64,000 bases of DNA from Candidatus Nomurabacteria bacterium. Lineage in GTDB: Bacteria > Patescibacteriota > Minisyncoccia > Phycocordibacterales > UBA9973. Location: positions 18,983 through 82,982 of the forward strand of contig JAPLXQ010000006.1 in the NCBI GenBank assembly GCA_026395995.1. The letters are read 5' to 3'. Below, one piece after another: positions 920 through 55,842 of the stretch (the first letter of the stretch is position 1; every line of letters begins with the position of its first letter). A program made the translations under genes and the position numbers. The notes beneath the pieces were generated by a model that worked only from the letters and a program-made list of their open reading frames with translations, was not told where the DNA came from and made no database searches.

Positions 920-3019
920 ATGGAACCAACACAATTCCCAGAAAATAAAGATATTACATATTTAGGTGAGACTACTTTTAGAAACAAAAATCAACTTTTT
1001 GGTATTAAAAGAAAAGATCGTCGCCAACATGTCTATGTTCTCGGAAAATCTGGAACAGGTAAATCAGCCTTACTTACAAATATGGTTATGCAAAACATTA
1101 TCAATGGAGATGGTGTTTGTGTTGTCGATCCTCACGGAGAATTGGTTGAAGATATCGTAGCGGCTATTCCTCCACATCGTATGAAAGATGTCGTCTACTT
1201 TAATCCAGCTGATACCGATTATCATATTGGTCTAAATGTACTCGAACTTATTGATCCTCAATACAAGCATCTTGTCGCATCAGGACTGATGGGAATCTTC
1301 ACAAAAATTTGGGCAAATGTTTGGTCTGCTCGTATGGAATACATTTTGAACAATGCAATTTTGGCTTTGCTTGAGACTCCAGGCACGACACTCCTTGGTG
1401 TCACTAGAATGCTCGTAGATAAACCATATAGAAAAACAATTGTTGATAATATCAAAGATCCTATCGTAAAAGGTTTTTGGGTAAATGAATATGACACTTG
1501 GCAAGATAAATTTCGTAATGAAGCTATTACTCCGATTCAAAACAAGGTCGGACAATTTCTTTCTAGCTCTATTGTTCGTAATGTCGTCGGTCAATCAAAA
1601 AGTACAATCAATCTTTTTGAAATAATGAATGAAAGAAAAATTTTCCTTGTAAACGTTTCAAAGGGACGTATCGGTGAAGACAATTCTGCTTTGCTCGGAG
1701 GTATGCTAATTACAAAAATCCAGCTCGCTGCGATGGAGCGTGTTCGTATTCTAGAAGATCAACGTAAAGACTTTTATTTATATGTCGACGAATTCCAAAA
1801 TTTCGTGACAGACTCTTTTGCAAACATTCTTTCTGAAGCTAGAAAATATCGTTTAAATTTGACTGTCGCACACCAATACACTGCTCAGCTCGTATCTGCA
1901 AATGGTTCAGCTGTACGTGATGCTGTTTTCGGTAACGTCGGAACGATGATTGTGTTTCGTGTCGGTGCTGAAGATGCAGACTTTTTGGAAAAAGAATTCG
2001 AACCAGAATTTATGGCACAAGATATTGTGTCTTTACCAAACTATCGAATTTATTTGAAGCTTATGATTGACGGAGTCACATCTCGTCCATTTTCTGCTAA
2101 AACTTTACCACCTATGGTGACAAAGAGAAATTTACAAACAGAACAAGAAGTAATAGATATTTCCAGAAAACTTTATGCTCGACCTAGAGAAATTGTCGAA
2201 GGTGAAATTAGTGAATGGAGTGGAATGTTTTTAAATCTTTCCGCTGCTACAGCACCAAAAGGTGGAAAAGAAATAGAACAATTTCCAGTGAAATGTTCTA
2301 TTTGTGCCAAAGATACTCTTGTACCATTCAAGCCAGAACCAGGACGACCTGTCTATTGTAAAGATTGTATTGCCAAAATGAAAGAAGGTACTTTGAAACC
2401 TTTACCTTTTACAGCACCCAAAATAGTAGAAGAAAAGAAAATTGAAGCTCCTATTCAAAAAACTATAAATGAAGTAAAAATACCTGTAATCACTCCGCCA
2501 ATACCAGCACAAATAGCGTTTAAACCAGCTTATAAAGATCCATTAAGTCCTACACCAGCACCAATTGCACCAAAACCAGCATATCAAGCTACTCAAAACC
2601 AGCCTTTTAAACCAGCTCTACAACAACCAATACAAACTATCCAAAAACCAATACCTCAAAATAATGCCTTGAAAGATGTTTTAGCTAAAGCTATGACTGA
2701 AAAGAAAGTCGAGCAACCAGTACAACCAAAAATATTTATTCCAACAGTTCAACCCACACCAGCACCTGTTTCTTTGGATTCATTAAAGAGTCAGACAAAT
2801 TCTTTACCAAATAATTTTCCAAAAGATAAAGGAGCTAGTAGTGATGATATGAATAAATTTAAAGATTTTATTACTGAAAAAGTATCACAACCACAAACAC
2901 CACCCACCACTCCTCAACAAAAAGAAGAAATAAAAACCTCACCCCAACTCTCTCCTGAAAAGGCGAGGGAGACAGTCAAAGAAGTCCCTGAAGACGTCTT
3001 GCTAAAAATCTTAGAATAA
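920..3019 (+). CDS. P-loop NTPase of the HerA/FtsK/TraD-like (DUF87-type) superfamily with a C-terminal CxxC...CxxC zinc ribbon and a long Pro/Gln-rich low-complexity tail
   Basis: Walker A GKSGTGKS near the N-terminus; Walker B-like hhhhDE ([11 protein letters not shown]). No N-terminal TM helix. C-terminal [32 protein letters not shown] zinc-ribbon motif, then repeats FKPAYKDP / [20 protein letters not shown]. Confidence 0.6.
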
Positions 3020-13757: not shown

Positions 13758-15151
13758 ATTTTAAAAATTTTATAACCTTCAGGAATGTCTTTTATTTCAT
13801 AACCAAGTGAATTTATTTTTTCGCGGAGGTCGTCTGACTTTTGGAAATCTTTATTTTTGCGAGCTTGTTCGCGTTCTTCGGCGAAAGCTGTCACTTCATC
13901 TGATATATTATCTTCTTTTAATTTATCTAAACCGAGACCTAGTACTTTATCAAAATCTAACAAGGTAGTTTTTTTATCAGCATTTGAGACTTTTTCATCT
14001 TTCAATATATCCCATATTAAAGTCAAAGCTTTTGGAGTATCTAAATCATCTGCGATATATTCTTTAAACTTGTTTTGATAGTCAGAATTTGCTACTCCAA
14101 GGTCACTTCCAAGGTCTATATAAGCCCTAAAAAGCCGTTTTAAGGCTGTTTGAGCACCTTCGAGGGCCTCATAGTTGAAATTCATTTTAGTTCGATAATT
14201 ACCCATTAAAAGCCAAAAACGATAGGCGAGTGGATTGATGTCTTTTTCTTCTAAAAGTTTTAAACGTAAAAAATTATCACCTGATTTTGCCATCTTTTCT
14301 CCAGCCATATCGAGGTGTTCATGATGAAGCCAATATTTTACAAAAGGACTTTTACCTGTAGCACATTCAGATTGAGCAATTTCATTTGTATGATGCACTG
14401 GTATATGGTCGATACCTCCAGTATGAATGTCGAATTGTTCACCTAAAAATTTTATTCCCATAGCAGAACATTCTATATGCCAACCAGGAAAACCCTGGCC
14501 CCAAGGTGAAGGATATCCGATTTTCGGATCAAATTTCCACAAAGCAAAATCTGCAGTATTATGTTTTTCAGAATTTAGGCCTATTCTAGATTCCTCGTCT
14601 TCATTTTTTTGAATTCCATTTCTTAATACTCCATATTCAGGGAATTTTTCTGTATCAAAATAGATTCCATCAGTGATCTTATAAGTAAAACCATTTTTCT
14701 CTAATCTTTGAATAAGTTCGACATCTTCATTAATATAATCTGAAGCAAAAGCGAGAACGCTCGGTGTGAGAATATTTAATTTTTGTAAATCTTCTTTAAA
14801 TCTGTCTGTGTAGAACTCAGCAAGCAAACGCATGTTTTGTAAATTTAATTCTTTACCTTCACGAAGCAAACCTTTTGTCATTTTATCATCACCAGAATCC
14901 GCATCACTAGCAAGGTGGCCAATATCTGTAATATTTATGACTTGTTTTACGTTGTAGTCAAAATATTTTAGAGCTCGGCGAAGAGTGTCGGCAAAGACAT
15001 ACGAGCGTAGATTACCTATGTGAGCGTAATTATAAACTGTAGGCCCGCAAGTATACATACGAACTTCTTTTGGGTCTATTGGTGAAAAATCTTCCTTTGC
15101 TCTCGTAAGAGTATTATATAATTTGATATTCATTTTATTATTTAAAACCAT
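13754..15151 (-). CDS. cysS: Cysteinyl-tRNA synthetase
   Basis: MYTCGPTVYNYAHIGNLRSY (HIGH-type motif), KMAKSGDN (KMSKS motif), and a Cys-binding region. 465 aa. Confidence 0.9.
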   Translation of the reverse strand: MVLNNKMNIKLYNTLTRAKEDFSPIDPKEVRMYTCGPTVYNYAHIGNLRSYVFADTLRRALKYFDYNVKQVINITDIGHLASDADSGDDKMTKGLLREGKELNLQNMRLLAEFYTDRFKEDLQKLNILTPSVLAFASDYINEDVELIQRLEKNGFTYKITDGIYFDTEKFPEYGVLRNGIQKNEDEESRIGLNSEKHNTADFALWKFDPKIGYPSPWGQGFPGWHIECSAMGIKFLGEQFDIHTGGIDHIPVHHTNEIAQSECATGKSPFVKYWLHHEHLDMAGEKMAKSGDNFLRLKLLEEKDINPLAYRFWLLMGNYRTKMNFNYEALEGAQTALKRLFRAYIDLGSDLGVANSDYQNKFKEYIADDLDTPKALTLIWDILKDEKVSNADKKTTLLDFDKVLGLGLDKLKEDNISDEVTAFAEEREQARKNKDFQKSDDLREKINSLGYEIKDIPEGYKIFKI

Positions 15152-16062
15152 TTTTTAGCCTTGAAGAAGACAAATACTGCAATACTAGTTACCAACATTG
15201 ACCCTAATATTATATAAAATTGACCCATTCCATGAATAAGCACAAAGTCTGTATTCATCATAAAGATACTAGATATAACACTAACAGGTGAAATAAGGAA
15301 AGTAATAATTGTCAGTATCTTCATTGTATCGTTGGTTTTATTTGCTAGCAATGAATCGTTTGTCTCACGTAAGTCGACAATCGTTTCTTTGTAAGAATCC
15401 ATAGCACTTTTTATTTTATTATATTCACCTGTAATAGCTTCTAATTGAAAAATAAATTCTGGTTCAAAAAATTTCTTACCAGCGGATTCAAAAGATTTCA
15501 AAGCTTCATAATGATAACGCATTGCTTGTTTGAAATTTAATAATTTTCTATTTGCTTCAGAGATTATTCTGACAGTATCTTTCTCACGACCTCCAAAAAT
15601 ATCTTGCTCTATCTTTTTTAGTTCAGGATGAAGAGCTTCTAAATCTTTAGCGACATTTCTATATAGTTCTCGGATGATATGGTAGAACAAATAACCAGCA
15701 TGATCTTCTTTTGCATCTTTACCTTCTTTATTCAATAAAGCACGAACTTCAAATTTCTTGAAAAATTCATGAAGGGGATTTACTAATTCATAATGAATAG
15801 TAATAAGGAATTTTTGACCGACGACGAAATCTATCTCTTGCTCTGTTTTACCATCCTTTTTCATATGATCAATAGGGAAGTGCAAAACTAAGTAAATCAA
15901 ATTATTATAGAGTTCCACTTTTGAACGCACTGTCTCTGTGATAAACTCTTCAGCGACCATTGGTGCTATTGAGTATTCATCTACCAAACTAGCTACTTCT
16001 TCGACTGTTGGGGATTGAAGATCAATCCAAGTAATGCCATTAAATGTGTATTTTGAAATCAT
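15142..16062 (-). CDS. CorA-family divalent cation (Mg2+/Co2+) transporter-like protein with a variant MMN loop motif
   Basis: Cytoplasmic N-domain plus two C-terminal TM helices with ...SIFMMNTDF... between them, in place of the canonical GMN. Roughly 300 aa, the typical size. Confidence 0.5.
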   Translation of the reverse strand: MISKYTFNGITWIDLQSPTVEEVASLVDEYSIAPMVAEEFITETVRSKVELYNNLIYLVLHFPIDHMKKDGKTEQEIDFVVGQKFLITIHYELVNPLHEFFKKFEVRALLNKEGKDAKEDHAGYLFYHIIRELYRNVAKDLEALHPELKKIEQDIFGGREKDTVRIISEANRKLLNFKQAMRYHYEALKSFESAGKKFFEPEFIFQLEAITGEYNKIKSAMDSYKETIVDLRETNDSLLANKTNDTMKILTIITFLISPVSVISSIFMMNTDFVLIHGMGQFYIILGSMLVTSIAVFVFFKAKKWF

Positions 16063-16099: not shown

Positions 16100-16140
16100 C
16101 CCCCACCTCACTCTAACCCTCTCCTTATAAAGGAGAGGGA
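16100..16140. repeat. Degenerate intergenic copy of the GC-rich palindromic repeat family (CACCTCACTCTAA CCCTCTCC TTATAAAG GAGAGGG)
   Basis: Same architecture as the intragenic copies at 42072, 52348 and 54709 (lead sequence, 8-bp stem, 8-nt loop, complementary stem), with S to W substitutions. Confidence 0.45.
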
Positions 16141-16187
16141 AATATAAAGACTTGCATTTTAAAGCGTTTTCGTATAATATAGAACTT

Positions 16188-16505
16188 ATGGAATTCGCAG
16201 TTATAAAAACAGGTGGAAAACAATACAAAGTCGCTGTAGGCGATGTTGTTTCTATCGAGAAAATAAAGGGTGAATACGCAAAAGGAGATAAGGTCTCTTT
16301 TGATACTGTTATGCTCGTAGATAACGGAAAAGATACTGCTATCGGTATGCCTTTCATTTCTGGTGCCAAAGTAAATGCTGAAATTGTTGAAATCGGCCGT
16401 GCCCGCAAGGTTATGGTTATCAAATACAAACAAAAGTCTCGTTACCTCAAGAGAAACGGACACCGCCAACCATTCTTTAAAGTAAAAATCTTATCAATAG
16501 CATAA
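16188..16505 (+). CDS. rplU: 50S ribosomal protein L21
   Basis: MEFAVIKTGGKQYKVAVGDVVSIEKI...KVMVIKYKQKSRYLKRNGHRQPFFKVKI is a canonical bL21. The start was moved to the internal ATG at 16188, since the N-terminal extension of the 16152 ORF overlaps the upstream repeat. Confidence 0.9.
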   Translation: MEFAVIKTGGKQYKVAVGDVVSIEKIKGEYAKGDKVSFDTVMLVDNGKDTAIGMPFISGAKVNAEIVEIGRARKVMVIKYKQKSRYLKRNGHRQPFFKVKILSIA

Positions 16506-29724: not shown

Positions 29725-31062
29725 ATGTCAGAACAAAAAGTTATAACTAGATTTGCGCCGAGTCCTACTGGTAAATTCCATGTTGGAGGTATTCGATCTG
29801 CTCTTTATAATTATCTTTATGCGAGAAAACATAATGGTAAATTTATTTTACGTTGCGAAGATACTGATCCAGCTAGATCTAAAAAAGAATACGAGGATTA
29901 TTTTATAAATGTCTTCAAATGGCTTGGTTTAGAATATGATGAATTTTTTCGTCAGTCAGAACGCACAGAAATTTACAAAAAATATTTACATAAACTCTTA
30001 GAAGAAGATAAAATTTATATTTCAAAAGAAGAAATAAAAGAAGAGGGTCAAAGAAGCGAAGTTATTCGTTTTAGAAATCCAAATAAGATTGTCACTTTTC
30101 ACGATGAAGTTTTAGGAGATCTATCTTTCAATACCACAGAGCTTGGTGACTTTATTATTGCTCGTGATATTGAAAGCCCTCTTTATCACTTCACTGTTGT
30201 TGTAGATGATTTCGAAATGAATATCACCCATATTATTAGAGGGCAAGAGCATGTCTCAAATACACCAAGACAAATCCTTATTCAAGAAGCCATTGGTGCT
30301 CCACGACCTATTTACGCCCATGGTTCCGTTATTTTAAACGAAGAAAGAGCTAAGCTTTCAAAACGTGACCCATTAGTTCGTCCATCACTTGAATACAAAG
30401 ATGAAGGCTATTTACCAGAAGGACTACTGAACTTTATGGCTTTTTTAGGCTGGAACCCAGGAGGAGAAAAGGAAATCTATACATTAAAAGAATTAATTAA
30501 TGCTTTTTCTTTAGAAAGAATGCAGAAACCAGGTGCAATATTTAATCCTGAAAAATTAGAATGGTTCAACAAAGAACATCTAAAATTATTACCAAAAGAA
30601 AAACAATTAGAATATATTTTTGAATTTATTCCAGAAAACATAAAAAGTCTTCCAAATTATTCAAAAGAAAAAATTGAAAATATGTTAAATATTTTAATTG
30701 AAAGAATTACTCATTTTGGGCAAATTAAAGAGAATTTTGAAACAGGGGAGTATAATTTCGTCTTTTCACAACCAGAATATGATAAAACAAAATTATTATA
30801 TAAAACCTCTACAGTAGAACAAAAAAACGAAAATATAAATAAGACCATATCAGCTTTGCAAGAAATATTAGAAAGTAATTTCACAAAAGAAAATGTGAAA
30901 GAATCCTTAATGAAGATAGCAGATTCATTACCTAGTCGTGGAGAATTATTGCACCCAGTTCGTTTTTCTCTTTCAGGAATGGATAAATCACCAGATCCTT
31001 TTATTATTGCTGAAATTTTAGGAAAAAATGAAACAATATCTAGATTACAAAAAGCTTTATAA
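29725..31062 (+). CDS. gltX: Glutamyl-tRNA synthetase (catalytic-core form, 445 aa)
   Basis: ITRFAPSPTGKFHVGGIRSALYNYLYA (HIGH-type) and AKLSKRDP (KMSKS). Confidence 0.88.
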   Translation: MSEQKVITRFAPSPTGKFHVGGIRSALYNYLYARKHNGKFILRCEDTDPARSKKEYEDYFINVFKWLGLEYDEFFRQSERTEIYKKYLHKLLEEDKIYISKEEIKEEGQRSEVIRFRNPNKIVTFHDEVLGDLSFNTTELGDFIIARDIESPLYHFTVVVDDFEMNITHIIRGQEHVSNTPRQILIQEAIGAPRPIYAHGSVILNEERAKLSKRDPLVRPSLEYKDEGYLPEGLLNFMAFLGWNPGGEKEIYTLKELINAFSLERMQKPGAIFNPEKLEWFNKEHLKLLPKEKQLEYIFEFIPENIKSLPNYSKEKIENMLNILIERITHFGQIKENFETGEYNFVFSQPEYDKTKLLYKTSTVEQKNENINKTISALQEILESNFTKENVKESLMKIADSLPSRGELLHPVRFSLSGMDKSPDPFIIAEILGKNETISRLQKAL

Positions 31063-32329
31063 TTTAATATTCAGCTTTGTCATTTTAGGTTTTTTTCTAT
31101 TCAATTATCCTCCTTCAATACATGCTCAAACAGTAGAAAGTCTACAAAACCAAATAAATCAAAGGAATAATGACATTGCTAATTTGGAAAAAGAAATTGC
31201 TTCTTACAATTCTCAATTAAATGACCTTGGTCAACAAAAGAGTTCTTTAAATACATCTTTAAAGCAATTAGACTTAACTAGAAAAGAACTAACAGCTAAT
31301 ATTTCTCTGACTAGTAAAAAAATTGAAAATACAAATAACAAAATAAGTAACTTAAGTTCACAAATAAATGACAAACAAAGCTCTATTTCAAATGACGTAG
31401 CATCAATAATGCTTGAATTAAAAAAAGTAAATGAATTTGAACTGAATTCAAATTTAGAAATAATTTTATCAGAGACTGATTTTACAAAAATTTGGAATGA
31501 TATCGATAATATAAGTTCAGTTCAACAAAAGATTAGAGCAAAGATATCTGAATTAAAAAAAATAAAAGGAGATTTAGAAGATACAAAAAAAGTCACAACT
31601 AATGCACGCAATGAATTAGTCGCCTTAAAAGCAAAACTTGCTGACCAGAAAAAAATAGTTGACCAAAACACAAAAGAAAAAAATAAATTATTATCTGAAA
31701 CCAAAAACAATGAAGCAAATTATCAAAAACTTTTGAAAGATAGGTTAGCTAAAAAAGATGCTTTTGAAGCTGAGATACGTAACTATGAATCACAATTAAA
31801 GTTTATTTTAGATCCAAATAAACTTCCAGGACAAGGAGTTCTTTCTTGGCCACTAGATTATATTTATGTAACACAACTTTTTGGTAAAACTGAAGCAGGG
31901 AAGCGATTGTATGCAAATGGTACTCATAATGGTACAGATTTTCGTGCACCAGTCGGTACACCAGTCAAAGCTATGGCTGATGGTATAATCGCTGGTACTA
32001 ATGATACTGATTTGCAATGCCGAGGAGTTTCTTTTGGGAAATTAATACTCATAAAATATGATAATGGTTTAGCTAGTACTTATGGTCACCTTTCTTTGAT
32101 AAAAGTTAATGTTGGTCAAAGAGTCGCTCGAGGTGAAATAGTCGGCTACAGTGGCAATACAGGCTATTCTACAGGTCCACATTTGCATTTATCAGTCTAC
32201 GCTAAAGATGCTGTAAATATGAAAACTTTACCTAGTAAATCTTGCCCTGGAAAATCTTTAACTCAACCAATCTCAGCCATCAATGCTTATTTAGATCCAA
32301 TGTATTATCTACCTCCTTATAAGAAATAA
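31028..32329 (+). CDS. Secreted coiled-coil M23 metallopeptidase (EnvC/NlpD-like peptidoglycan DD-endopeptidase)
   Basis: Signal peptide; ~250 aa heptad-rich region (NLEKEIASYNSQLNDL...); C-terminal M23 motifs HNGTDFRAPVGTPVKAMADGII and GPHLHLSVY. Overlaps the gltX 3' end by 35 nt. Confidence 0.85.
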   Translation: MKQYLDYKKLYNLIFSFVILGFFLFNYPPSIHAQTVESLQNQINQRNNDIANLEKEIASYNSQLNDLGQQKSSLNTSLKQLDLTRKELTANISLTSKKIENTNNKISNLSSQINDKQSSISNDVASIMLELKKVNEFELNSNLEIILSETDFTKIWNDIDNISSVQQKIRAKISELKKIKGDLEDTKKVTTNARNELVALKAKLADQKKIVDQNTKEKNKLLSETKNNEANYQKLLKDRLAKKDAFEAEIRNYESQLKFILDPNKLPGQGVLSWPLDYIYVTQLFGKTEAGKRLYANGTHNGTDFRAPVGTPVKAMADGIIAGTNDTDLQCRGVSFGKLILIKYDNGLASTYGHLSLIKVNVGQRVARGEIVGYSGNTGYSTGPHLHLSVYAKDAVNMKTLPSKSCPGKSLTQPISAINAYLDPMYYLPPYKK

Positions 32330-32368
32330 TTTGCCTTGTTTTTAATAAATATGGTAAAATAAAGATAT

Positions 32369-32503
32369 ATGAAAAATAAACAAGGTGGTTTCCTTCAATT
32401 AATAATATTTATCGTGGTCATAGTATTTTTGATGCATTACTTTGGTCTTACTCTCACAGGAATTTTCAACTGGTTTGCTACTATGTTTCATAGTATTATC
32501 TAA
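32369..32503 (+). CDS. 44-aa single-TM peptide MKNKQGGFLQLIIFIVVIVFLMHYFGLTLTGIFNWFATMFHSII, first member of a 3-copy small-peptide family; absent from the ORF track
   Basis: Hand translation. The N-terminus MK[NKR]K-Q-x-GG plus hydrophobic helix is shared with the 32516 and 33482 ORFs. Confidence 0.35.
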   Translation: MKNKQGGFLQLIIFIVVIVFLMHYFGLTLTGIFNWFATMFHSII

Positions 32504-32515
32504 ATATATAATTTA

Positions 32516-32818
32516 ATGAAAAAAAAATATCAAAATGGTGCAGTCAGTATACTCGGTGCAATCATATTAGCTATTTTTATTTTTGTTATTTTAAGAGAAT
32601 ATTTTAATATAGACCTACAGGCAATCTTTATAAATGATCAAGTCATAAATACTTATCATCAAATTCAAACATCTCTATTAAGTTTTTGGCAGCACTATCT
32701 ACAAAACCCAGTTTCATATTTTTGGCATGCATTTTTAGATAACATGCAACGTATCCATGATGGTCAACCCACAGTATTTACCACTGCAGGACAAAATCTA
32801 ACAATACCATTACACTAA
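32516..32818 (+). CDS. Small membrane protein, paralogue 2 (100 aa) with conserved C-terminal motif YFWHAFLDNMQRIHDGQP
   Basis: MKKKYQNGAVSILGAIILAIFIFVIL N-terminus. The C-terminal motif is nearly identical to that of the 33482 ORF (YFWHSFVSNMQRMHNGQP). Confidence 0.5.
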   Translation: MKKKYQNGAVSILGAIILAIFIFVILREYFNIDLQAIFINDQVINTYHQIQTSLLSFWQHYLQNPVSYFWHAFLDNMQRIHDGQPTVFTTAGQNLTIPLH

Positions 32819-32820
32819 AA

Positions 32821-33438
32821 ATGATTTTTACAAAGAAAGAGTTAATTCTATTTAAAAAATTAAATACACCAGAAAAAATACAAGATTTTTTGAATTCGAT
32901 TCCTTTTAATTTTGAAAAAAATGGTATTGATACTATCAAATCACCACTTGAAACCTTACATAAATGGAATGCTCATTGTTTTGAAGGAGCATTACTTGGT
33001 GCTTATATATTGTCTTTGCATGGTCATAAACCATTACTTTTGTATCTTCAGTCTACAAAAGATACAAAAAACTATGACAGTGATCATGTTATAGCTCCAT
33101 TCAAAGAAAATGGCTATTGGGGTGCTTTATCAAAAACAAATCATGGAATTTTACGATATCGTGAACCAATTTATAAAAACATTCGTGAACTTGTAATGTC
33201 CTATTTCCATGAATATTTTTTAGATGACGGTACAAAAACTCTCCGTAAATATTCAGATGTTTTAGATTTAAATAAATTAAAAATAAATTGGCAAAATAGT
33301 GAAGATGATTTATGGATAATCGATAGGGAATTGGATAAAATAAAACATTACAATATCCTACCTAAAAAATTTAAAAAACTACGTAAGGCTGACAAAATAG
33401 AAATAGCTACTGGTAAACTAATCGAATGGGTTAAATAA
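32821..33438 (+). CDS. Transglutaminase-like / papain-fold cysteine peptidase-family protein (putative)
   Basis: SPLETLHKWNAHCFEGALLGAYILSLHGHKPLLLY fits the G-x-C-x-x-F/A ... catalytic-Cys region of transglutaminase-like proteases. Downstream DHVIAPFKENGYW supplies the His, followed by Asp-rich segments. Confidence 0.45.
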   Translation: MIFTKKELILFKKLNTPEKIQDFLNSIPFNFEKNGIDTIKSPLETLHKWNAHCFEGALLGAYILSLHGHKPLLLYLQSTKDTKNYDSDHVIAPFKENGYWGALSKTNHGILRYREPIYKNIRELVMSYFHEYFLDDGTKTLRKYSDVLDLNKLKINWQNSEDDLWIIDRELDKIKHYNILPKKFKKLRKADKIEIATGKLIEWVK

Positions 33439-33481
33439 AAAATATTTGATAAATACTAAAATATATTCTATTATAGACAAC

Positions 33482-33682
33482 ATGAAAAGGAAACAGACAA
33501 ATGGTGGCTACATAAGCCAAATAGTATCTATAATCGTATTAATTTTAATTATTATATTTCTTTCAAGAAATTCTACAGTTAAATATTTTTGGCACTCATT
33601 CGTTAGCAATATGCAACGCATGCATAATGGCCAACCAAATGACTGGCAACTCGCTGCACCAATCATTCCATTTAATCGTTAG
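33482..33682 (+). CDS. Small membrane protein, paralogue 3 (start trimmed to MKRKQTNGGYISQIV...), same family as the 32516 ORF
   Basis: N-terminal charged head + TM helix and the C-terminal YFWHSFVSNMQRMHNGQP motif shared with 32516..32818. Confidence 0.5.
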   Translation: MKRKQTNGGYISQIVSIIVLILIIIFLSRNSTVKYFWHSFVSNMQRMHNGQPNDWQLAAPIIPFNR

Positions 33683-40293: not shown

Positions 40294-40304
40294 AATTTAA
40301 TTAT

Positions 40305-40356
40305 AACGCCCCCTTCCCGCCCGCCATCGCTACGCTCAGGCGTTAGCGGGCGGGCA
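40305..40356. repeat. GC-rich nested hairpin (CCGCCCGC ... GCGGGCGG with inner GCTACGC tcag GCGTTAGC) in the atpD-downstream intergenic region
   Basis: Read directly; a strongly GC-rich island in AT-rich spacer DNA. Confidence 0.4.
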
Positions 40357-40372
40357 TATAAAACTAATAATA

Positions 40373-42783
<2,411 letters not shown>

Positions 42784-45940: not shown

Positions 45941-45982
45941 GCCGACGTTTTCAGTCGGCTCCCCGACCTAATGCGTCGGGGG
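45941..45982. other. Tandem GC-rich hairpins in the atpB-atpE intergenic spacer (GCCGAC gttttca GTCGGC; CCCCGAC ctaatgc GTCGGGG)
   Basis: Read directly. A GC-rich island within AT-rich DNA; probably an mRNA structure within the atp operon. Confidence 0.4.
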
Positions 45983-45987
45983 AATTT

Positions 45988-51383: not shown

Positions 51384-53141
51384 TTATACTCCGTGGTGTG
51401 GTTTTGGGTGTTCTATAGCTAAATGACTAGCTATATATTCCTTTGTACCACCTATCTTTTTACCAGGATTTAAAATATTATTCGGGTCAAAAATAGTCTT
51501 TGTTTGTTTGAATAAATTGTAAATTCTTTCACCATACATCTTCTCTAGGTACGGAGTTCGTACTATTCCGTCATTGTGTTCAGCTGTTATAGACCCATGA
51601 TAACGAATAACTAAATCATAAACTTTATCTGAAAGTTCTAAAATAATTTTAGCTGTATCGGGACGAGTAAAATCCATCAGTGGAATTATATGAAAATTTC
51701 CATCACCTGCGTGTCCTGCTATCGTATATGTAATATCATAATTTCCTAAAATTTTATTTAACTCTGGAATAAATTTTGGTAAAAATTCTGGACGAACAAT
51801 AATGTCATCGATAAATGGTGCTGTTCTTTTGTTCGCGACGTGTTTACGAAGTAAATTGAAACTTTCGCGACGAATATCCCAATATTTTCCTGCTTCTGCA
51901 TCTGATTTCGTAATATGAACTTTTAAATTAAAATGTTTTATCGCTTCTTTTAATTTTATACATTGAGCATTTGCTTGCTCTTCATTATCGCCAGCAAATT
52001 CTACAAGCAAAATCATTTTCGGGAATCCACCTGTAATCATCATTCCGAGTTCCGGCAAGAATGACCACATAAATTTAATCATTCCTATTAATCCTTTTGT
52101 CTTTAAAAAGTCTGGGAAAAACTTTACTGCGAGTTTCATCGTCTTGTCATCATAAGTTTCCAATGTCTCTGGATTCAGAGGTAAAATCTCATCTACAAGT
52201 CTACCTAGTGGTTCCAAGTCTGTCATAAAAATAGCTACAAGTTTTGAATACTTTGGATTTTTAACAAGTTTAAAAGTGACTTCTGTCGCTATACCTAAAG
52301 TTCCTTGAGAACCAACGAGCAACTTATTTAGATTAAAAATTTTATCAGCACCCCCTCCCAACCTCCCCCTTGGCAAAGGGGGAGGAGAACTCAATACATT
52401 CCAAAGATAATATCCAGCAGAATTTTTGTGAACTTTTGGTTTCGCCTCCGCTATTTCTTCTTCATTATTTTTTACTAATTCAAAAATCTTTTTACTATAT
52501 TCGTCTTGATTAGAAATTTGATTCGCTGGAATTGATTTTATAATTCTCTCTACTCCGTCAGTAAAAACAACTTTTGATTCTACTACATAATCTTCTGTTT
52601 TTCCGTATTTTAAAGTTCTCTCTCCTGCAGAATTATTTCCAAACATTCCACCCATAGCATTTAAACTCTTTGATGCAGTATAGCAAGGTAAAATAAGCCC
52701 TTTTTCTAAAGTTATTTTTTCAAAATCTCTGTAAAACATTCCCGGCTGAACAGTAATGGTCGGCTGGGAAAAGGCAAGACCTTTAGGGAGTCCAAGGTCT
52801 TGCCTTGAGGAAGCCGAATCATTAAATTCAATTAATTTATTCATATATTTAGTAAAATCTAAAATTATAGATTCACCGATAGCTCCGCCAGACATATCTG
52901 TCCCAGCACAACGGCACGTAATAGAAAGAAGATCACCTTTCTCATGCAATCCTTTGTTTTTTACGATGTCATTATTTTTATTTATAAATTTAACTAAATT
53001 CTGAACATCAATATTATCTTTAGGAAAGATTACAAACTTTGGACGAATTTCAAAAATACTCGCATCATGAGAATATTTTTTAAGTGTTTCATCACTATCA
53101 TCCACTTCCCCTTTTATTATTTTTTGTAGTTCTTCTTTCAT
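51384..53141 (-). CDS. FAD-linked oxidoreductase (PCMH-type FAD-binding domain + FAD-oxidase C-terminal domain; GlcD/D-lactate dehydrogenase-like), carrying an in-frame GC-rich repeat insertion
   Basis: FAD-binding segments (ITCRCAGTDMSGGAIGESIILDF; LLVGSQGTLGIATEVTFKL); the C-terminal HGSITAEHNDG. The insert [16 protein letters not shown] is encoded by the repeat at 52348-52388. Confidence 0.7.
   Translation of the reverse strand: MKEELQKIIKGEVDDSDETLKKYSHDASIFEIRPKFVIFPKDNIDVQNLVKFINKNNDIVKNKGLHEKGDLLSITCRCAGTDMSGGAIGESIILDFTKYMNKLIEFNDSASSRQDLGLPKGLAFSQPTITVQPGMFYRDFEKITLEKGLILPCYTASKSLNAMGGMFGNNSAGERTLKYGKTEDYVVESKVVFTDGVERIIKSIPANQISNQDEYSKKIFELVKNNEEEIAEAKPKVHKNSAGYYLWNVLSSPPPLPRGRLGGGADKIFNLNKLLVGSQGTLGIATEVTFKLVKNPKYSKLVAIFMTDLEPLGRLVDEILPLNPETLETYDDKTMKLAVKFFPDFLKTKGLIGMIKFMWSFLPELGMMITGGFPKMILLVEFAGDNEEQANAQCIKLKEAIKHFNLKVHITKSDAEAGKYWDIRRESFNLLRKHVANKRTAPFIDDIIVRPEFLPKFIPELNKILGNYDITYTIAGHAGDGNFHIIPLMDFTRPDTAKIILELSDKVYDLVIRYHGSITAEHNDGIVRTPYLEKMYGERIYNLFKQTKTIFDPNNILNPGKKIGGTKEYIASHLAIEHPKPHHGV
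52348..52388. repeat. Single reverse-orientation copy of the GC-rich palindromic repeat (GCACCCCCTCCCAA CCTCCCCC TTGGCAAA GGGGGAGG), in frame inside the FAD-oxidase gene
   Basis: Near-exact reverse complement of the atpG copy at 42072-42111, differing only in the loop. It translates to SPPPLPRGRLGGG. Confidence 0.7.
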
Positions 53142-54363: not shown

Positions 54364-55842
54364 CTATTTTAGCAAATCCATGAGCAATTGTTTAGCTACT
54401 TGGGGATTCGCGGAGCCTTTGGTTTCTTTCATCATTTGACCGACGAGTGACATGAGCGCGACTTCTTTACCGCCTTTATAATCAGCAACGACTTTTTCAT
54501 TTCCTGAGATTATTTTCTGAGCAATTTCAGTGAGTGCACCTGTATCGTTTTTCTGAAGCAAATCTTTTTCTGTAGCAATTTTAAGTGGGCTAGCATCTTC
54601 GGAAACGATCATCGCCAAAATATCTTTTCCGGCACGAGAAGAAATTTTATTTTCAAAAATTAATGTGACGAGTTCGGCAAAGTTAAAAGCACTTGGCTTT
54701 TTGAATTTTCCCTCCCCTTCGCCAAGGGGAGGGTTAGGGAGGGGTGCATTTTTCCTTAGACCAATAAAATCTGTAGTTATATAATTAGAAGCAACTTTTG
54801 CTAAATCTTTATTGTCACTAAGCTCTACAATAATTTCTTCAAACCATTTTCCGAGTTCTAAATCATTAATATAGACTTCTATATCTTCATCTTTAATACC
54901 ATACGCTGTTTTATATCTATCTCTCTTTTGTGCTGGAGTTTCTGGTAGATCTTTCTTCATAGCTTCTAAATCAAAAGCTTCGTGAAGTTTCATTTTTGGT
55001 AAATCAGGATCAGGAAAATAACGATAGTCCTGACTACTTTCTTTCTTTCTCTGAGAAATTGTCTTTTGTTTATTTTCATCCCAACCACGAGTTTCTTTTA
55101 CTATTTCACTTTCGCGTCCACTTTCAAAAAGTTCAGTCATTCTTTCTACTTCATATTTAATAGCTTTTTCTGCACTACGGAAAGAGTTTAAATTTTTTAC
55201 TTCTACATATGCAGGCCATTTGTTATCTTTATCTGGTGAAATAGAAACGTTTGCTTCTACGCGCATTTCTCCCTTTTCCATATTTGCCTCTGAAACTCCG
55301 AGATACCAAAGTAAGAGTTGATATTCTTTTGCGAAATTACTTGCGCACTTTGCCGCATCTTCTGGATTATCAAAAGTATGTGCTTCAGTAACGAGTTCCA
55401 TAAGTGGTACACCAGCACGATTGAAATCAATAAGTGTATAATCCCCTTTGTCGTGTTTACTAGTCCCTGTATCTTCTTCCAAGTGAATACGAGTGAGGTC
55501 CATCCCTGCGAGCTTACCACCAGAAACTATTGGATATTTGTATTGTGAAATCTGATATCCTTTTGGAATATCTGGATAAAAATAATTCTTTCTATCGAAT
55601 TCTGAAAAATCTGCTATTTCTGAACCAAGTGCGAGCCCAACTTTAATAACACTTTCAATAGCCTTTTTATTGGGTACAGGCAAAGTCGCCGGATGCGCCA
55701 TACATACAGGACAAATGTTTACGTTTGGCTTTTCCTCATCAGGATCGTTTTTACAACCACAAAACATCTTTGTAGTTGTCTTCAACTCCGCATGTATTTC
55801 CAAACCTATTGTTGTGTAATATTTCTTTTCCATAAAGTTCAA
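54364..55842 (-). CDS. gatB: Asp-tRNA(Asn)/Glu-tRNA(Gln) amidotransferase subunit B, carrying an in-frame GC-rich repeat insertion near the C-terminal domain
   Basis: MEKKYYTTIGLEIHAELKTTTKMFCGCKND is the canonical GatB N-terminus. The insert APLPNPPLGEGEGKF is encoded by the repeat at 54709-54747. C-terminal YqeY-like domain. Confidence 0.88.
   Translation of the reverse strand: MNFMEKKYYTTIGLEIHAELKTTTKMFCGCKNDPDEEKPNVNICPVCMAHPATLPVPNKKAIESVIKVGLALGSEIADFSEFDRKNYFYPDIPKGYQISQYKYPIVSGGKLAGMDLTRIHLEEDTGTSKHDKGDYTLIDFNRAGVPLMELVTEAHTFDNPEDAAKCASNFAKEYQLLLWYLGVSEANMEKGEMRVEANVSISPDKDNKWPAYVEVKNLNSFRSAEKAIKYEVERMTELFESGRESEIVKETRGWDENKQKTISQRKKESSQDYRYFPDPDLPKMKLHEAFDLEAMKKDLPETPAQKRDRYKTAYGIKDEDIEVYINDLELGKWFEEIIVELSDNKDLAKVASNYITTDFIGLRKNAPLPNPPLGEGEGKFKKPSAFNFAELVTLIFENKISSRAGKDILAMIVSEDASPLKIATEKDLLQKNDTGALTEIAQKIISGNEKVVADYKGGKEVALMSLVGQMMKETKGSANPQVAKQLLMDLLK
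54709..54747. repeat. Single forward-orientation copy of the GC-rich palindromic repeat (CCCTCCCC TTCGCCAA GGGGAGGG TTAGGGAGGGGTGC), in frame inside gatB
   Basis: Same architecture and tail as the atpG copy; translates to PLPNPPLGEGEG. Confidence 0.7.

What the first reader, a model, noticed from the sequence alone, without database searches (positions are those of the whole stretch)
54709..54747. Third in-frame copy of the palindromic unit, inside gatB
CCCTCCCC-TTCGCCAA-GGGGAGGG-TTAGGGAGGGGTGC has the same stem/loop/tail organisation and orientation as the first atpG unit. It encodes PLPNPPLGEGEG within GatB. All three intragenic copies sit in the same codon phase relative to the element. 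This suggests either a phase preference at insertion or selection against other phases.
Basis: seen in the sequence. Interest (0 to 1): 0.6.

Follow-up and report, generated by a model that had tools for sequence, protein, structure and literature searches.

The report
Triplex-type GC repeat inserted in gatB
A 39-base GC-rich repeat of a kind long known between genes in E. coli (BoxC, or "intrastrand triplex motif") was recently inserted, in frame, into a surface loop of the essential enzyme GatB of a tiny AT-rich candidate-phyla bacterium, where it adds about a dozen residues.

Summary
The unit is real: window 54709-54747 is 69% G+C in a 33% G+C genome, and none of 100 shuffles gave the pattern. 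It is more than a palindrome with a tail. Its order is C-stem, loop, G-stem, TTA, then a second G-stem that is the exact mirror of the first. That is the BoxC / PIT / "TM" intrastrand-triplex repeat described in E. coli and cyanobacteria (PMC4666352).

It is a true insertion. The two closest GatB orthologues (93% and 92% aa) and 115 of 120 homologues lack it, a net gain of 33 nt. AlphaFold places its 13 residues in a low-confidence coil between two helices.

The window holds six such units and shuffles hold none. Five lie inside genes. Two form an inverted TT/CCG doublet in atpG, built like E. coli BoxC pairs.

Related units sit at the same gatB codon in at least five scattered Paceibacteria lineages. 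Loops of atpG and a FAD-linked oxidase are hot spots too. The atpG doublet is 94% identical to that of a distant relative but 59% to that of a close one, so its history is decoupled from the gene's.

The "same codon phase" claim fails: gatB and the first atpG unit differ at the hairpin. Across 14 intragenic copies, two phases are used about equally and the third once.

Both the element and in-frame repeat insertion (Rickettsia RPE) are known. The host and the combination are new.

The parts
54709..54747 (+). Whole unit as reported. The G-rich (triplex-motif) strand is the + strand. gatB reads the complement as GCA CCC CTC CCT AAC CCT CCC CTT GGC GAA GGG GAG GGA, giving APLPNPPLGEGEG.
   Evidence: 69% G+C against 36% for the rest of gatB
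54710..54717 (+). C-stem CCCTCCCC. It pairs with 54726-54733. The helix extends to 10 bp (54710-54719 with 54724-54733) around the tetraloop CGCC.
54718..54725 (+). Loop 1, TTCGCCAA
54726..54733 (+). G-stem 1, GGGGAGGG (purine strand of the hairpin)
54734..54736 (+). Loop 2, TTA. This is the 'type A' loop of E. coli TM_ECO. Read on the gatB strand it would be a TAA stop in one frame.
54737..54744 (+). G-stem 2, GGGAGGGG. It is the exact mirror of G-stem 1 (8 of 8) and is the potential Hoogsteen third strand. On the gatB strand it forms the 'C-arm'.
54364..55833 (-). gatB (Asp/Glu-tRNA amidotransferase subunit B), the host gene. The first-start ORF runs to 55842 (TTG); the ATG start at 55833 matches the homologues.
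42072..42113 (+). Sister unit 1 in atpG: CCCCTCCCCC-TTCGCTAA-GGGGGAGG-TT-GGGAGGGGG. Same strand and orientation as the gatB unit.
42119..42160 (-). Sister unit 2 in atpG, inverted, with a CCG ('type B') loop 2 and a T*A:T triplet. Together with unit 1 it forms an arm-to-arm doublet like E. coli BoxC pairs.
52345..52385 (-). Sister unit in the FAD-linked oxidase (peptide [15 protein letters not shown]). It matches atpG unit 1 at all but about 3 positions over roughly 50 nt.
2936..2973 (-). Sister unit in the C-terminal tail of the TraD/VirD4-like ORF 920..3019 (peptide [12 protein letters not shown])
16100..16140 (-). The only intergenic sister unit, lying between a 306-aa ORF (15142..16062, minus strand) and a 117-aa ORF (16152..16505, plus strand)

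Best explanation
The segment is one copy of a dispersed, non-coding, GC-rich repeat of the BoxC / PIT / 'intrastrand triplex motif' (TM) family.

Anatomy (shown): a pyrimidine stem, a loop, the complementary purine stem, a 3-nt TTA loop, and a second purine block that mirrors the first. As single-stranded DNA the G-rich strand can fold into a hairpin and then lay the mirror block into its major groove. E. coli copies do this in vitro (PMC4666352).

History (shown): the copy entered gatB in the recent ancestry of this Nomurabacteria lineage.

Why it persists (inferred): it sits in a loop between two helices of the helical domain, its net length is a multiple of three, and the frame in use has no stop. 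It is therefore simply translated as about 13 Pro/Gly-rich, probably disordered residues. This parallels Rickettsia palindromic elements in Rickettsia genes. GatB most likely tolerates it rather than uses it.

How copies spread (inferred): copying from other genomic copies, either by an unidentified trans-acting enzyme that recognises the folded strand or by templated repair or gene conversion. Selection then leaves only copies in permissive loops, which would explain the same loops being hit repeatedly. The mechanism of spread is unknown for the whole family. No enzyme is known even in E. coli.
For: Identity:
- The unit obeys the C-stem / G-stem / mirror G-stem rule 8 of 8, with a TTA loop.
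- It matches E. coli TM_ECO no. 2 at 30 of 38 positions.
- My finder also recovers the E. coli hrpB-mrcB BoxC pair, which serves as a positive control.
- The atpG doublet has the same hairpin / G-arm / spacer / C-arm / hairpin layout with TT and CCG loops.
- Family-wide, 75 of 78 CTCTCC-type hairpins from many phyla carry a mirror-type arm within 45 nt and only 3 a direct-type arm. Arm type follows hairpin type in 123 cases against 4.

Insertion:
- It is absent from the closest orthologues and from 115 of 120 homologues.
- The DNA alignment shows a net +33 nt.
- G+C is 69% against 36% for the rest of the gene.

Tolerated loop: the AF2 model puts residues 363-381 in coil, with pLDDT below 50 for 365-375. 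The same place is a variable loop in solved GatB structures.

Mobility or turnover:
- There are 6 units in 64 kb and 0 in shuffles, and 23 in 1.17 Mb of Paceibacteria DNA against 0 in shuffles.
- Carriers of a unit at the gatB site are scattered, and each carrier's six nearest neighbours lack one.
- The atpG doublet is 94% identical to L247's, where the flanks are 57-81% identical. It is 59% identical to L246's, where the flanks are 86-96% identical.

Translation: all intragenic copies are stop-free and in frame.
Against: - No mobilising gene was found. Thirty window ORFs scanned against Pfam include no transposase. The window is only a fraction of the genome, so this says little.
- There is no target-site duplication or clean junction. 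The filled site looks like a replacement of 2-6 codons, not a pure insertion.
- Triplex formation has never been shown in vivo, even in E. coli.
- The strict E. coli consensus (9-nt stems, CCCTCNCCC) is not met.
- No independent assembly of this exact gatB allele was found.
- Neither translation of the insert nor activity of the enzyme has been shown.
Confidence: 0.8

Rival explanations
1. Site-directed insertion (homing-like). The repeat family recognises particular DNA sites, so the recurrence at one gatB codon and at the atpG and FAD-oxidase loops reflects target choice and not survival in permissive loops.
For: - In five lineages the unit starts right after the same AAAAAT/ACAAAT of gatB.
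- The atpG doublet has identical position and orientation in genomes whose flanks are only 57-81% identical.
- Several unrelated insert families share an AAT|TC junction.
Against: - The same loops are also occupied by unrelated palindromic families: 14 of 19 orthologues at FAD-oxidase site B, and several at the gatB site. That fits a permissive-loop filter.
- AAAAT-like strings are ubiquitous in a 33% G+C genome.
- The junction codon is a conserved Asn (AAT).
- No enzyme is known.
Confidence: 0.25
2. The insert is functional and selected. It could act as a flexible Pro/Gly linker in GatB, as an mRNA hairpin that slows translation between domains, or as a DNA structure that regulates or destabilises the locus.
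For: - The hairpin and mirror arm are perfectly intact.
- The mRNA is predicted to form a 10-bp GC hairpin.
- Holder et al. link such motifs to local genomic instability.
Against: - The closest relatives do without it.
- The same repeat sits in unrelated genes and in a spacer.
- The insert has low predicted order.
- No promoter, terminator or other activity was found for E. coli copies.
- Folding z-scores are unremarkable, at -1.4 and -0.9.
Confidence: 0.1
3. The segment is an ancestral part of GatB that relatives lost.
For: Related units occur at the same codon in other Paceibacteria.
Against: - 115 of 120 homologues lack it, including all six nearest neighbours of each carrier.
- The window copy is a different subtype (CTCCCC, with no 3' arm) from the others.
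- Its G+C is far above that of the gene.
- An old segment would not keep a perfect 10-bp palindrome at the synonymous-site divergence seen between these genes.
Confidence: 0.04
4. Assembly or sequencing artefact, for example a chimeric join through a repeat.
For: The exact GatB protein is not on record elsewhere. The neighbouring atpG carries a frameshift.
Against: - The reading frame is kept.
- The flanks are colinear with L001 and L002 on both sides.
- The sister atpG doublet is seen in an independent assembly, L247.
- The L003 gatB unit is found identically in an NCBI MAG and in a Logan assembly.
Confidence: 0.03

Closest known systems
BoxC / PIT (potential intrastrand triplex) elements, i.e. 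the TM_ECO motif of E. coli and related G/C-rich triplex motifs of cyanobacteria (Holder et al. 2015, PMC4666352; earlier work by Bergler, Bachellier and Hoyne as cited there)
   Same: - Same order of blocks: C-stem, loop, G-stem, 3-nt loop, mirror G-stem.
- Same TTA and CCG loop types.
- Similar sequence (30 of 38 positions).
- Dispersed in multiple copies.
- Inverted A+B doublets.
- Copy number differs strongly between close relatives.
- No associated transposase is known.
   Different: - E. coli copies are always intergenic. Here 5 of 6 are inside genes, in frame.
- The stems are 8 nt with one purine interruption, against 9 nt with two in E. coli.
- The host is a Patescibacteria (CPR) genome of 33% G+C.
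- Relatives also carry a 'long form' with both arms around one hairpin plus a variable second hairpin.
Rickettsia palindromic elements (RPE; Ogata et al. 2000, as reviewed in PMC10969869 and PMC3184786)
   Same: - Selfish palindromic repeats inserted in frame into unrelated housekeeping genes of a small AT-rich genome.
- They are translated as extra peptide segments compatible with the fold.
   Different: - RPEs are about 105-150 bp and restricted to Rickettsia.
- They are not mirror or triplex motifs.
- I know of no sequence relationship; RPE sequences were not compared here.
- The unit here is 39 nt and belongs to a cross-phylum family.
Other small repeats found inside genes: Coxiella QMITE (PMC5896051), BRE of Bordetella, and intragenic ERIC/RUP (PMC3184786)
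   Same: Small structured repeats that are sometimes fused in frame with ORFs.
   Different: They are MITE-like, with terminal inverted repeats and often target duplications, and they are much longer. None is a triplex motif.
Yeast mitochondrial GC clusters (my own knowledge, not checked here)
   Same: Short GC-rich palindromic mobile clusters in a very AT-rich genome, some of them lying in frame inside a protein gene (var1).
   Different: They are organellar and eukaryotic, with different sequences and no mirror arm.

Membership tests
BoxC / PIT / intrastrand triplex motif (class II purine motif, ITxF definition) | Three consecutive blocks on one strand: pyrimidine stem, loop, complementary purine stem, short loop, second purine block | tested here: met
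   CCCTCCCC / TTCGCCAA / GGGGAGGG / TTA / GGGAGGGG. Loop 1 is 4 nt if the helix is read as 10 bp.
BoxC / PIT / intrastrand triplex motif | The third block mirrors the purine stem (G*G:C, A*A:T or T*A:T triplets, at most 1 mismatch) | tested here: met
   8 of 8 for the gatB unit. All six window units pass with at most 1 mismatch. Family-wide, 75 of 78 have mirror-type arms and 3 direct-type.
BoxC / PIT / intrastrand triplex motif | Strict TM_ECO consensus: CCCTCNCCC N3-6 GGGNGAGGG N3 GGGNGAGGG | tested here: not met
   The stems are 8 nt with a single T/A interruption, and 30 of 38 positions match TM_ECO no. 2. CTCTCC-type copies in relatives (for example L002, CCCCTCTCC..GGAGAGGGG TTA GGGGTGAGG) share the two-interruption stem of the E. 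coli consensus.
BoxC / PIT / intrastrand triplex motif | Loop 2 is TTA (type A) or CCG (type B), with inverted A+B pairs | tested here: met
   The gatB unit has TTA. The atpG pair has TT plus CCG, arm to arm, like the hrpB-mrcB pair of E. coli K-12.
BoxC / PIT / intrastrand triplex motif | Over-represented, dispersed copies | tested here: met
   6 units in 64 kb against 0 in 20 shuffles. 23 against 0 in 1.17 Mb.
BoxC / PIT / intrastrand triplex motif | Intergenic location (always so in E. coli K-12) | tested here: not met
   5 of 6 window copies lie inside ORFs. About 4 of 8 Patescibacteria hits are intragenic, against roughly 5% in other phyla.
BoxC / PIT / intrastrand triplex motif | The G-rich single strand folds into a stable triplex (CD/NMR) | not testable with these tools
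   Shown only for E. coli oligonucleotides, and not seen in vivo.
Rickettsia palindromic elements (RPE) | In-frame insertion into unrelated housekeeping ORFs, at positions compatible with the fold | tested here: met
   gatB, atpG, FAD-linked oxidase and the TraD-like ORF. AF2 places the gatB insert in a coil with pLDDT below 50.
Rickettsia palindromic elements (RPE) | Element of about 105-150 bp belonging to the Rickettsia RPE sequence families | tested here: not met
   The unit is 39 nt (net +33 nt) and belongs to the BoxC-type family. Sizes are from PMC3184786. RPE sequences were not aligned here.
MITE | Terminal inverted repeats plus a target-site duplication | tested here: not met
   No duplication at the filled versus empty gatB site. 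The junction looks like a replacement of 2-6 codons.
REP / RAYT | GTAG or CGTC tag at one end of the palindrome, and a RAYT (Y1 transposase) gene in the genome | tested here: inconclusive
   The unit carries no GTAG or CGTC on either strand. No transposase was found among 30 window ORFs, but the rest of the genome was not available.
G-quadruplex motif | Four G3+ tracts with loops of 1-7 nt | tested here: met
   GGGG-A-GGG-TTA-GGG-A-GGGG in the gatB copy. It is not a family feature: CTCTCC-type copies have GG tracts.
Rfam RNA families | Match to a curated covariance model | tested here: not met
   Only tRNAs reached gathering score in the window and 4 loci. Nothing credible appeared at E<=10 over a long-form copy.

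The most novel reading that the evidence does not exclude
BoxC-type triplex repeats, whose mode of spread has been unknown since the 1990s, are actively turning over in Paceibacteria (CPR).
- They repeatedly enter, or convert, the same few loops of essential proteins (GatB, ATP synthase gamma, a FAD-linked oxidase).
- They may be homogenised within each genome.
- They therefore act as a structure-dependent mobile element or gene-conversion system that writes Pro/Gly-rich peptides into proteins.

Because the copies sit in alignable coding sequence, filled and empty sites can be compared codon by codon. That would make the insertion mechanism testable.
Probability: 0.3. Interest if true: 0.7.

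Novelty: new variant of a known kind. Interest (0 to 1): 0.45.

Why it matters
BoxC/PIT/TM repeats occur in many phyla, yet nobody knows how they spread or what they do. In E. coli they sit only in spacers, where junctions are hard to read.

In these CPR genomes they lie in frame inside conserved genes. Presence/absence differences exist between genomes about 90% identical, the same loops are occupied again and again, and the element's history disagrees with the gene's. That gives a natural system in which to work out insertion sites, polarity and turnover.

It also gives a second example, after Rickettsia RPEs, of a reduced AT-rich genome whose proteins are being lengthened by selfish palindromic DNA.

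On the practical side, such inserts inflate apparent protein divergence in CPR lineages. They can be mistaken for lineage-specific functional loops.

Tried and rejected
- **Rfam.** Gathering thresholds on the window and 4 loci, and E<=10 on a long-form copy, gave only tRNAs or noise.
- **Hairpin significance from folding energy.** Not useful. The z-scores were -1.4 (RNA) and -0.9 (DNA), because shuffled G-run/C-run sequences fold equally well. Only the atpG doublet stands out, at z = -3.5.
- **MITE reading.** Rejected, because there is no target duplication.
- **REP/RAYT reading.** No GTAG/CGTC tag, and no transposase among 30 window ORFs.
- **First mirror-versus-direct test.** Sliding 7-of-8 matches could not separate the two, because the G-rich blocks are near-symmetric. 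An exact-motif test on CTCTCC-type hairpins then did separate them.
- **Literature.** Searches for CPR/Patescibacteria in-frame palindromic inserts, and for the cyanobacterial-type sequence strings, found nothing relevant.
- **A fuzzy-regex scan** of the window timed out.
- **P0045.** Its contigs have no DNA on file.
- **Junction motif (AAT|TC, GAAYTCAA).** Suggestive, but not separable from AT-rich background and conserved codons.
Full report
**What is there.** Window 54710-54747 reads CCCTCCCC TTCGCCAA GGGGAGGG TTA GGGAGGGG TGC, exactly as reported. It lies inside an ORF on the minus strand (54364..55842). That ORF is GatB by Pfam (GatB_N 1e-98, GatB_Yqey 1e-29), by sequence match to solved GatB chains (3al0_B, 4e-110) and by fold. 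On the coding strand the segment reads GCA CCC CTC CCT AAC CCT CCC CTT GGC GAA GGG GAG GGA, giving APLPNPPLGEGEG. These are residues 363-375 counted from the ATG start. The segment is 69% G+C; the rest of gatB is 36% and the window 33%. The stem/loop/stem pattern occurred in none of 100 dinucleotide-preserving shuffles.

**It is an insertion.** A search of 5.8 billion proteins identifies the organism as a Candidatus Nomurabacteria-like member of the Patescibacteria. In an alignment of the 120 best GatB homologues, the two closest (P0001 at 93% and P0002 at 92%) read KNNP-EIKKPSAFNF where the window reads KNAPLPNPPLGEGEGKFKKPSAFNF. In all, 115 of 120 have no insert at this place. I fetched their contigs (L001, L002). 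At DNA level the genes are 91% and 88% identical to the window and colinear on both sides, and the window has a net 33 extra bases (AAAAAT|AATCCTGAAAT[AT] against AAAAAT|GCACC...GAGGG|AAAATTC). They do not, so the insertion reading stands. There is no target-site duplication, and the junction looks more like a replacement of two codons than a clean insertion.

**Where it sits in the protein.** An AlphaFold2 model was built from 41 aligned homologues (mean pLDDT 80.6). It has helices at 342-362 and 382-393 with coil between them, and residues 365-375 have pLDDT below 50. The alignments to T. maritima, A. aeolicus and S. aureus GatB place gaps in the solved chains at the same spot.

**What the unit is.** The 'tail' is not arbitrary. 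GGGAGGGG is the exact mirror image of the purine stem GGGGAGGG. A text search for sequence strings from related copies led to Holder et al. 2015 (PMC4666352). That paper describes 'intrastrand triplex motifs' (TM), earlier called BoxC and PIT elements:

- The pattern is CCCTCNCCC-N3-6-GGGNGAGGG-N3-GGGNGAGGG.
- The second loop is TTA (type A) or CCG (type B).
- E. coli K-12 has 23 copies, always intergenic, with five inverted A+B pairs.
- A stable triplex forms on the single strand in vitro, but none was detected in vivo.
- No promoter or terminator activity and no link to transposons, phages or plasmids was found.
- The motifs are widespread, and very abundant in cyanobacteria.

The gatB unit has the same block order and the TTA loop, and matches TM_ECO no. 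2 at 30 of 38 positions. Its stems are 8 nt with one interruption, not 9 nt with two, so the strict E. coli consensus is not met.

I wrote a finder for this architecture: 7-nt stems, at most 1 mismatch each for the Watson-Crick and the mirror relation, loops of 3-10 and 1-6 nt. It recovers the E. coli hrpB-mrcB BoxC pair as a positive control. It finds six units in the window and none in 20 shuffles.

**The six units in the window.**
- gatB, 54710-54744.
- Two in atpG, at 42074-42108 and, inverted, at 42122-42155.
- One in a FAD-linked oxidase, 52351-52385.
- One in the C-terminal tail of a TraD/VirD4-like ORF, 2938-2971.
- One intergenic, 16106-16139.

Five of the six are inside ORFs, all in frame and stop-free. 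The atpG pair is laid out as hairpin-TT-G-arm-spacer-C-arm-(CCG)-hairpin. This is the arm-to-arm arrangement of one TTA-type and one CCG-type unit seen in the E. coli pair. It folds as a three-hairpin structure with z = -3.5. atpG unit 1 and the FAD-oxidase unit differ at about 3 positions over roughly 50 nt, including short flanks.

**The wider family.** The hits came from Cyanobacteria, Bacteroidota, Ignavibacteria, Armatimonadota, Chloroflexi, Proteobacteria, Spirochaetes, Patescibacteria and one Bathyarchaeia MAG. A scan of viral contigs found 38 more.

The flanks were not part of the pattern, yet they carry the expected arms. Of 78 CTCTCC-type hairpins, 75 have a mirror-type block GGG[TA]G[AT]GG within 45 nt and only 3 a direct-repeat type. 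The arm type follows the hairpin type in 123 cases against 4 (CTCTCC with GGGTGAGG, CTCCCC with GGGTGGGG).

Many copies have arms on both sides of one hairpin, with a variable second hairpin between the main hairpin and the distant arm. No Rfam family matches. Outside Patescibacteria the hits are nearly all intergenic: 7 of 101 low-GC hits have a spanning ORF of 200 aa or more, and two of those 7 are Patescibacteria. About 4 of 8 Patescibacteria hits are intragenic.

**Hot spots and turnover.** Related units occupy the same gatB codon, straight after AAAAAT/ACAAAT, in L003/L004, L005, L006 and L134, and judging by its peptide also in P0045. These carriers are 69-80% identical to one another. 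They are scattered in a neighbour-joining tree, and each one's six nearest neighbours lack an insert. The window copy is a different subtype (CTCCCC stems, no 3' arm).

Other loops behave the same way. At site B of the FAD-linked oxidase, 14 of 19 orthologues carry an insert: TM units in the window, L002 and L131, and other palindromic families elsewhere. The variable loop of ATP synthase gamma is similarly colonised.

The clearest sign that the repeats have their own history is in atpG. The window's doublet is 94 of 100 identical to that of L247 (GCA_040384245.1), whose flanking 200 nt are only 57% and 81% identical. It is only 59% identical to the doublet at the same position in L246 (GCA_026396065.1), whose flanks are 86% and 96% identical. 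So units at a given site are replaced, converted or re-inserted independently of the gene. L247 also shows that these intragenic units are not an artefact of one assembly.

**Codon phase.** The landmark T of the C-stem is at codon position 3 in gatB, the FAD-linked oxidase and atpG unit 2, but at position 1 in atpG unit 1. gatB and atpG unit 1 coincide only over parts of the element, because 1-nt differences cancel.

Each unit is stop-free in two of three frames per orientation, and in one frame for atpG unit 2 as it sits in the gene. Being in frame and open is thus what any surviving copy must be. Across 14 distinct intragenic units in 1.17 Mb of Paceibacteria DNA the three phases are used 7: 6: 1. 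Getting at most one in a given phase has a binomial probability of about 0.03. However, four of the copies share the gatB site, so this is only a hint that one stop-free phase (reading Leu-Ser-...-Arg-Arg-Gly) is disfavoured.

**Mechanism, and what is inferred.**
- Shown: the identity of the architecture, the insertion, the loop location, the multiplicity, the recurrence at the same sites, and the discordant history.
- Inferred: that the unit is a selfish passenger translated into a disordered loop, and that the hot spots mainly reflect loops where extra residues are harmless.
- Unknown: the copying mechanism. The 30 window ORFs scanned include no transposase. The ORFs scanned or seen in the window are mostly housekeeping genes.

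The lack of target duplication, the apparent replacement of a few codons, and the site-specific replacement of one variant by another all fit templated repair or gene conversion from other copies. They fit an unknown structure-specific enzyme acting on the folded single strand equally well. I cannot separate the two.

**Comparison with known systems, and verdict.** As a sequence element this belongs with BoxC/PIT/TM repeats. The defining block order, mirror relation, loop types, paired arrangement and over-representation were all tested and met. The strict E. coli consensus and the intergenic location were tested and not met. As a phenomenon it works like Rickettsia palindromic elements, and more loosely like BRE or QMITE inserts, but it is not a member of those families.

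I rate it a new variant of a known kind. The family is known, but here it is in a new phylum with an intragenic, in-frame lifestyle and recurrent hot spots that the held literature does not describe. Interest is moderate. The finding is largely explained, but it gives a tractable handle on how this old, unexplained repeat family moves.

Noticed in passing
window 42295-42386 (atpG, minus strand; break at about 42350): atpG is split into two overlapping ORFs. The window lacks 14 nt (after ...ATCATCG) that L246 has; L247 has sequence across those 14 positions too. L247, an independent assembly carrying the same doublet, itself lacks 19 nt a few codons further on. So two assemblies are frameshifted at nearly the same place, by different amounts. 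This could be a pseudogene, a split gamma subunit, or a recurrent assembly problem.
   Followed up: partly
window 52758-52818 (FAD-linked oxidase, minus strand): A second, unrelated GC-rich nested palindrome (TCGGCT..AGCCGA around GGCAAGACC..GGTCTTGCC) is inserted in frame, giving the peptide DSASSRQDLGLPKGLAFSQP. It is absent from L001 and L003. L002 has yet another insert at the same site.
   Followed up: partly
L001 about 14200-14320; also L137, L128, L160, L161, L132, L152 (FAD-linked oxidase site B): In-frame inserts of 80-160 nt. Their long outer stems differ in sequence between copies but are always complementary. In L001, L152 and L161 the outer stems enclose a shared core (..GCCTTCGCCCTCGGAGACA.AGGACAGGGAACCCACGAC..; peptide ..FALGD..); the other copies have different cores. 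14 of 19 orthologues carry some insert here. The compensatory outer stems suggest a structured element. A gathering-score Rfam scan that included L002, which carries the same peptide motif at site A, returned only tRNAs.
   Followed up: partly
window about 42470-42500 (atpG N-terminal part): A perfect GTAG-tagged palindrome GTAGACGTC-G-GACGTCTAC (peptide SVDVGRLQ) lies where the close relative L246 has a triplex-motif unit (peptide APLLNKERGGGEV). This is a REP-like unit inside a gene.
   Followed up: no
window 40304-40357: A GC-rich block in the unusually long (313-nt) atpD-atpC spacer has two interleaved complementary pairs (TAACGCC..GGCGTTA and CCCGCCCGC..GCGGGCGGG), a pseudoknot-like arrangement.
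   Followed up: no
window 45952-45983: A GC-rich hairpin (CCCCGAC-CTAATGC-GTCGGGG) lies just downstream of the ATP synthase a-subunit gene.
   Followed up: no
window about 30000-33500: Cumulative GC skew peaks here, and gene orientation changes from mostly plus to mostly minus. This is the signature of a replication terminus.
   Followed up: no
L001 10380-10420 (gatB of the closest relative): The closest relative lacks the triplex unit but has its own 21-nt in-frame insert (GDTSTSL) after the conserved SKH. This is another GatB hot spot, where P0008, P0015, P0019, P0029, P0045, P0071, P0099 and P0119 also carry inserts.
   Followed up: partly
L073 2678-3003; L209 (viral contig, 7.3 kb): A cyanobacterial MAG has four triplex-motif hairpins at an exact 101-nt period. 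One IMG/VR contig carries five copies in 7.3 kb, so the family also rides on viral or proviral DNA.
   Followed up: no
L246 6993-8264: The relative has an extra 423-aa ORF with no Pfam hit between atpG and atpD. In the window those two genes are only 64 nt apart.
   Followed up: no
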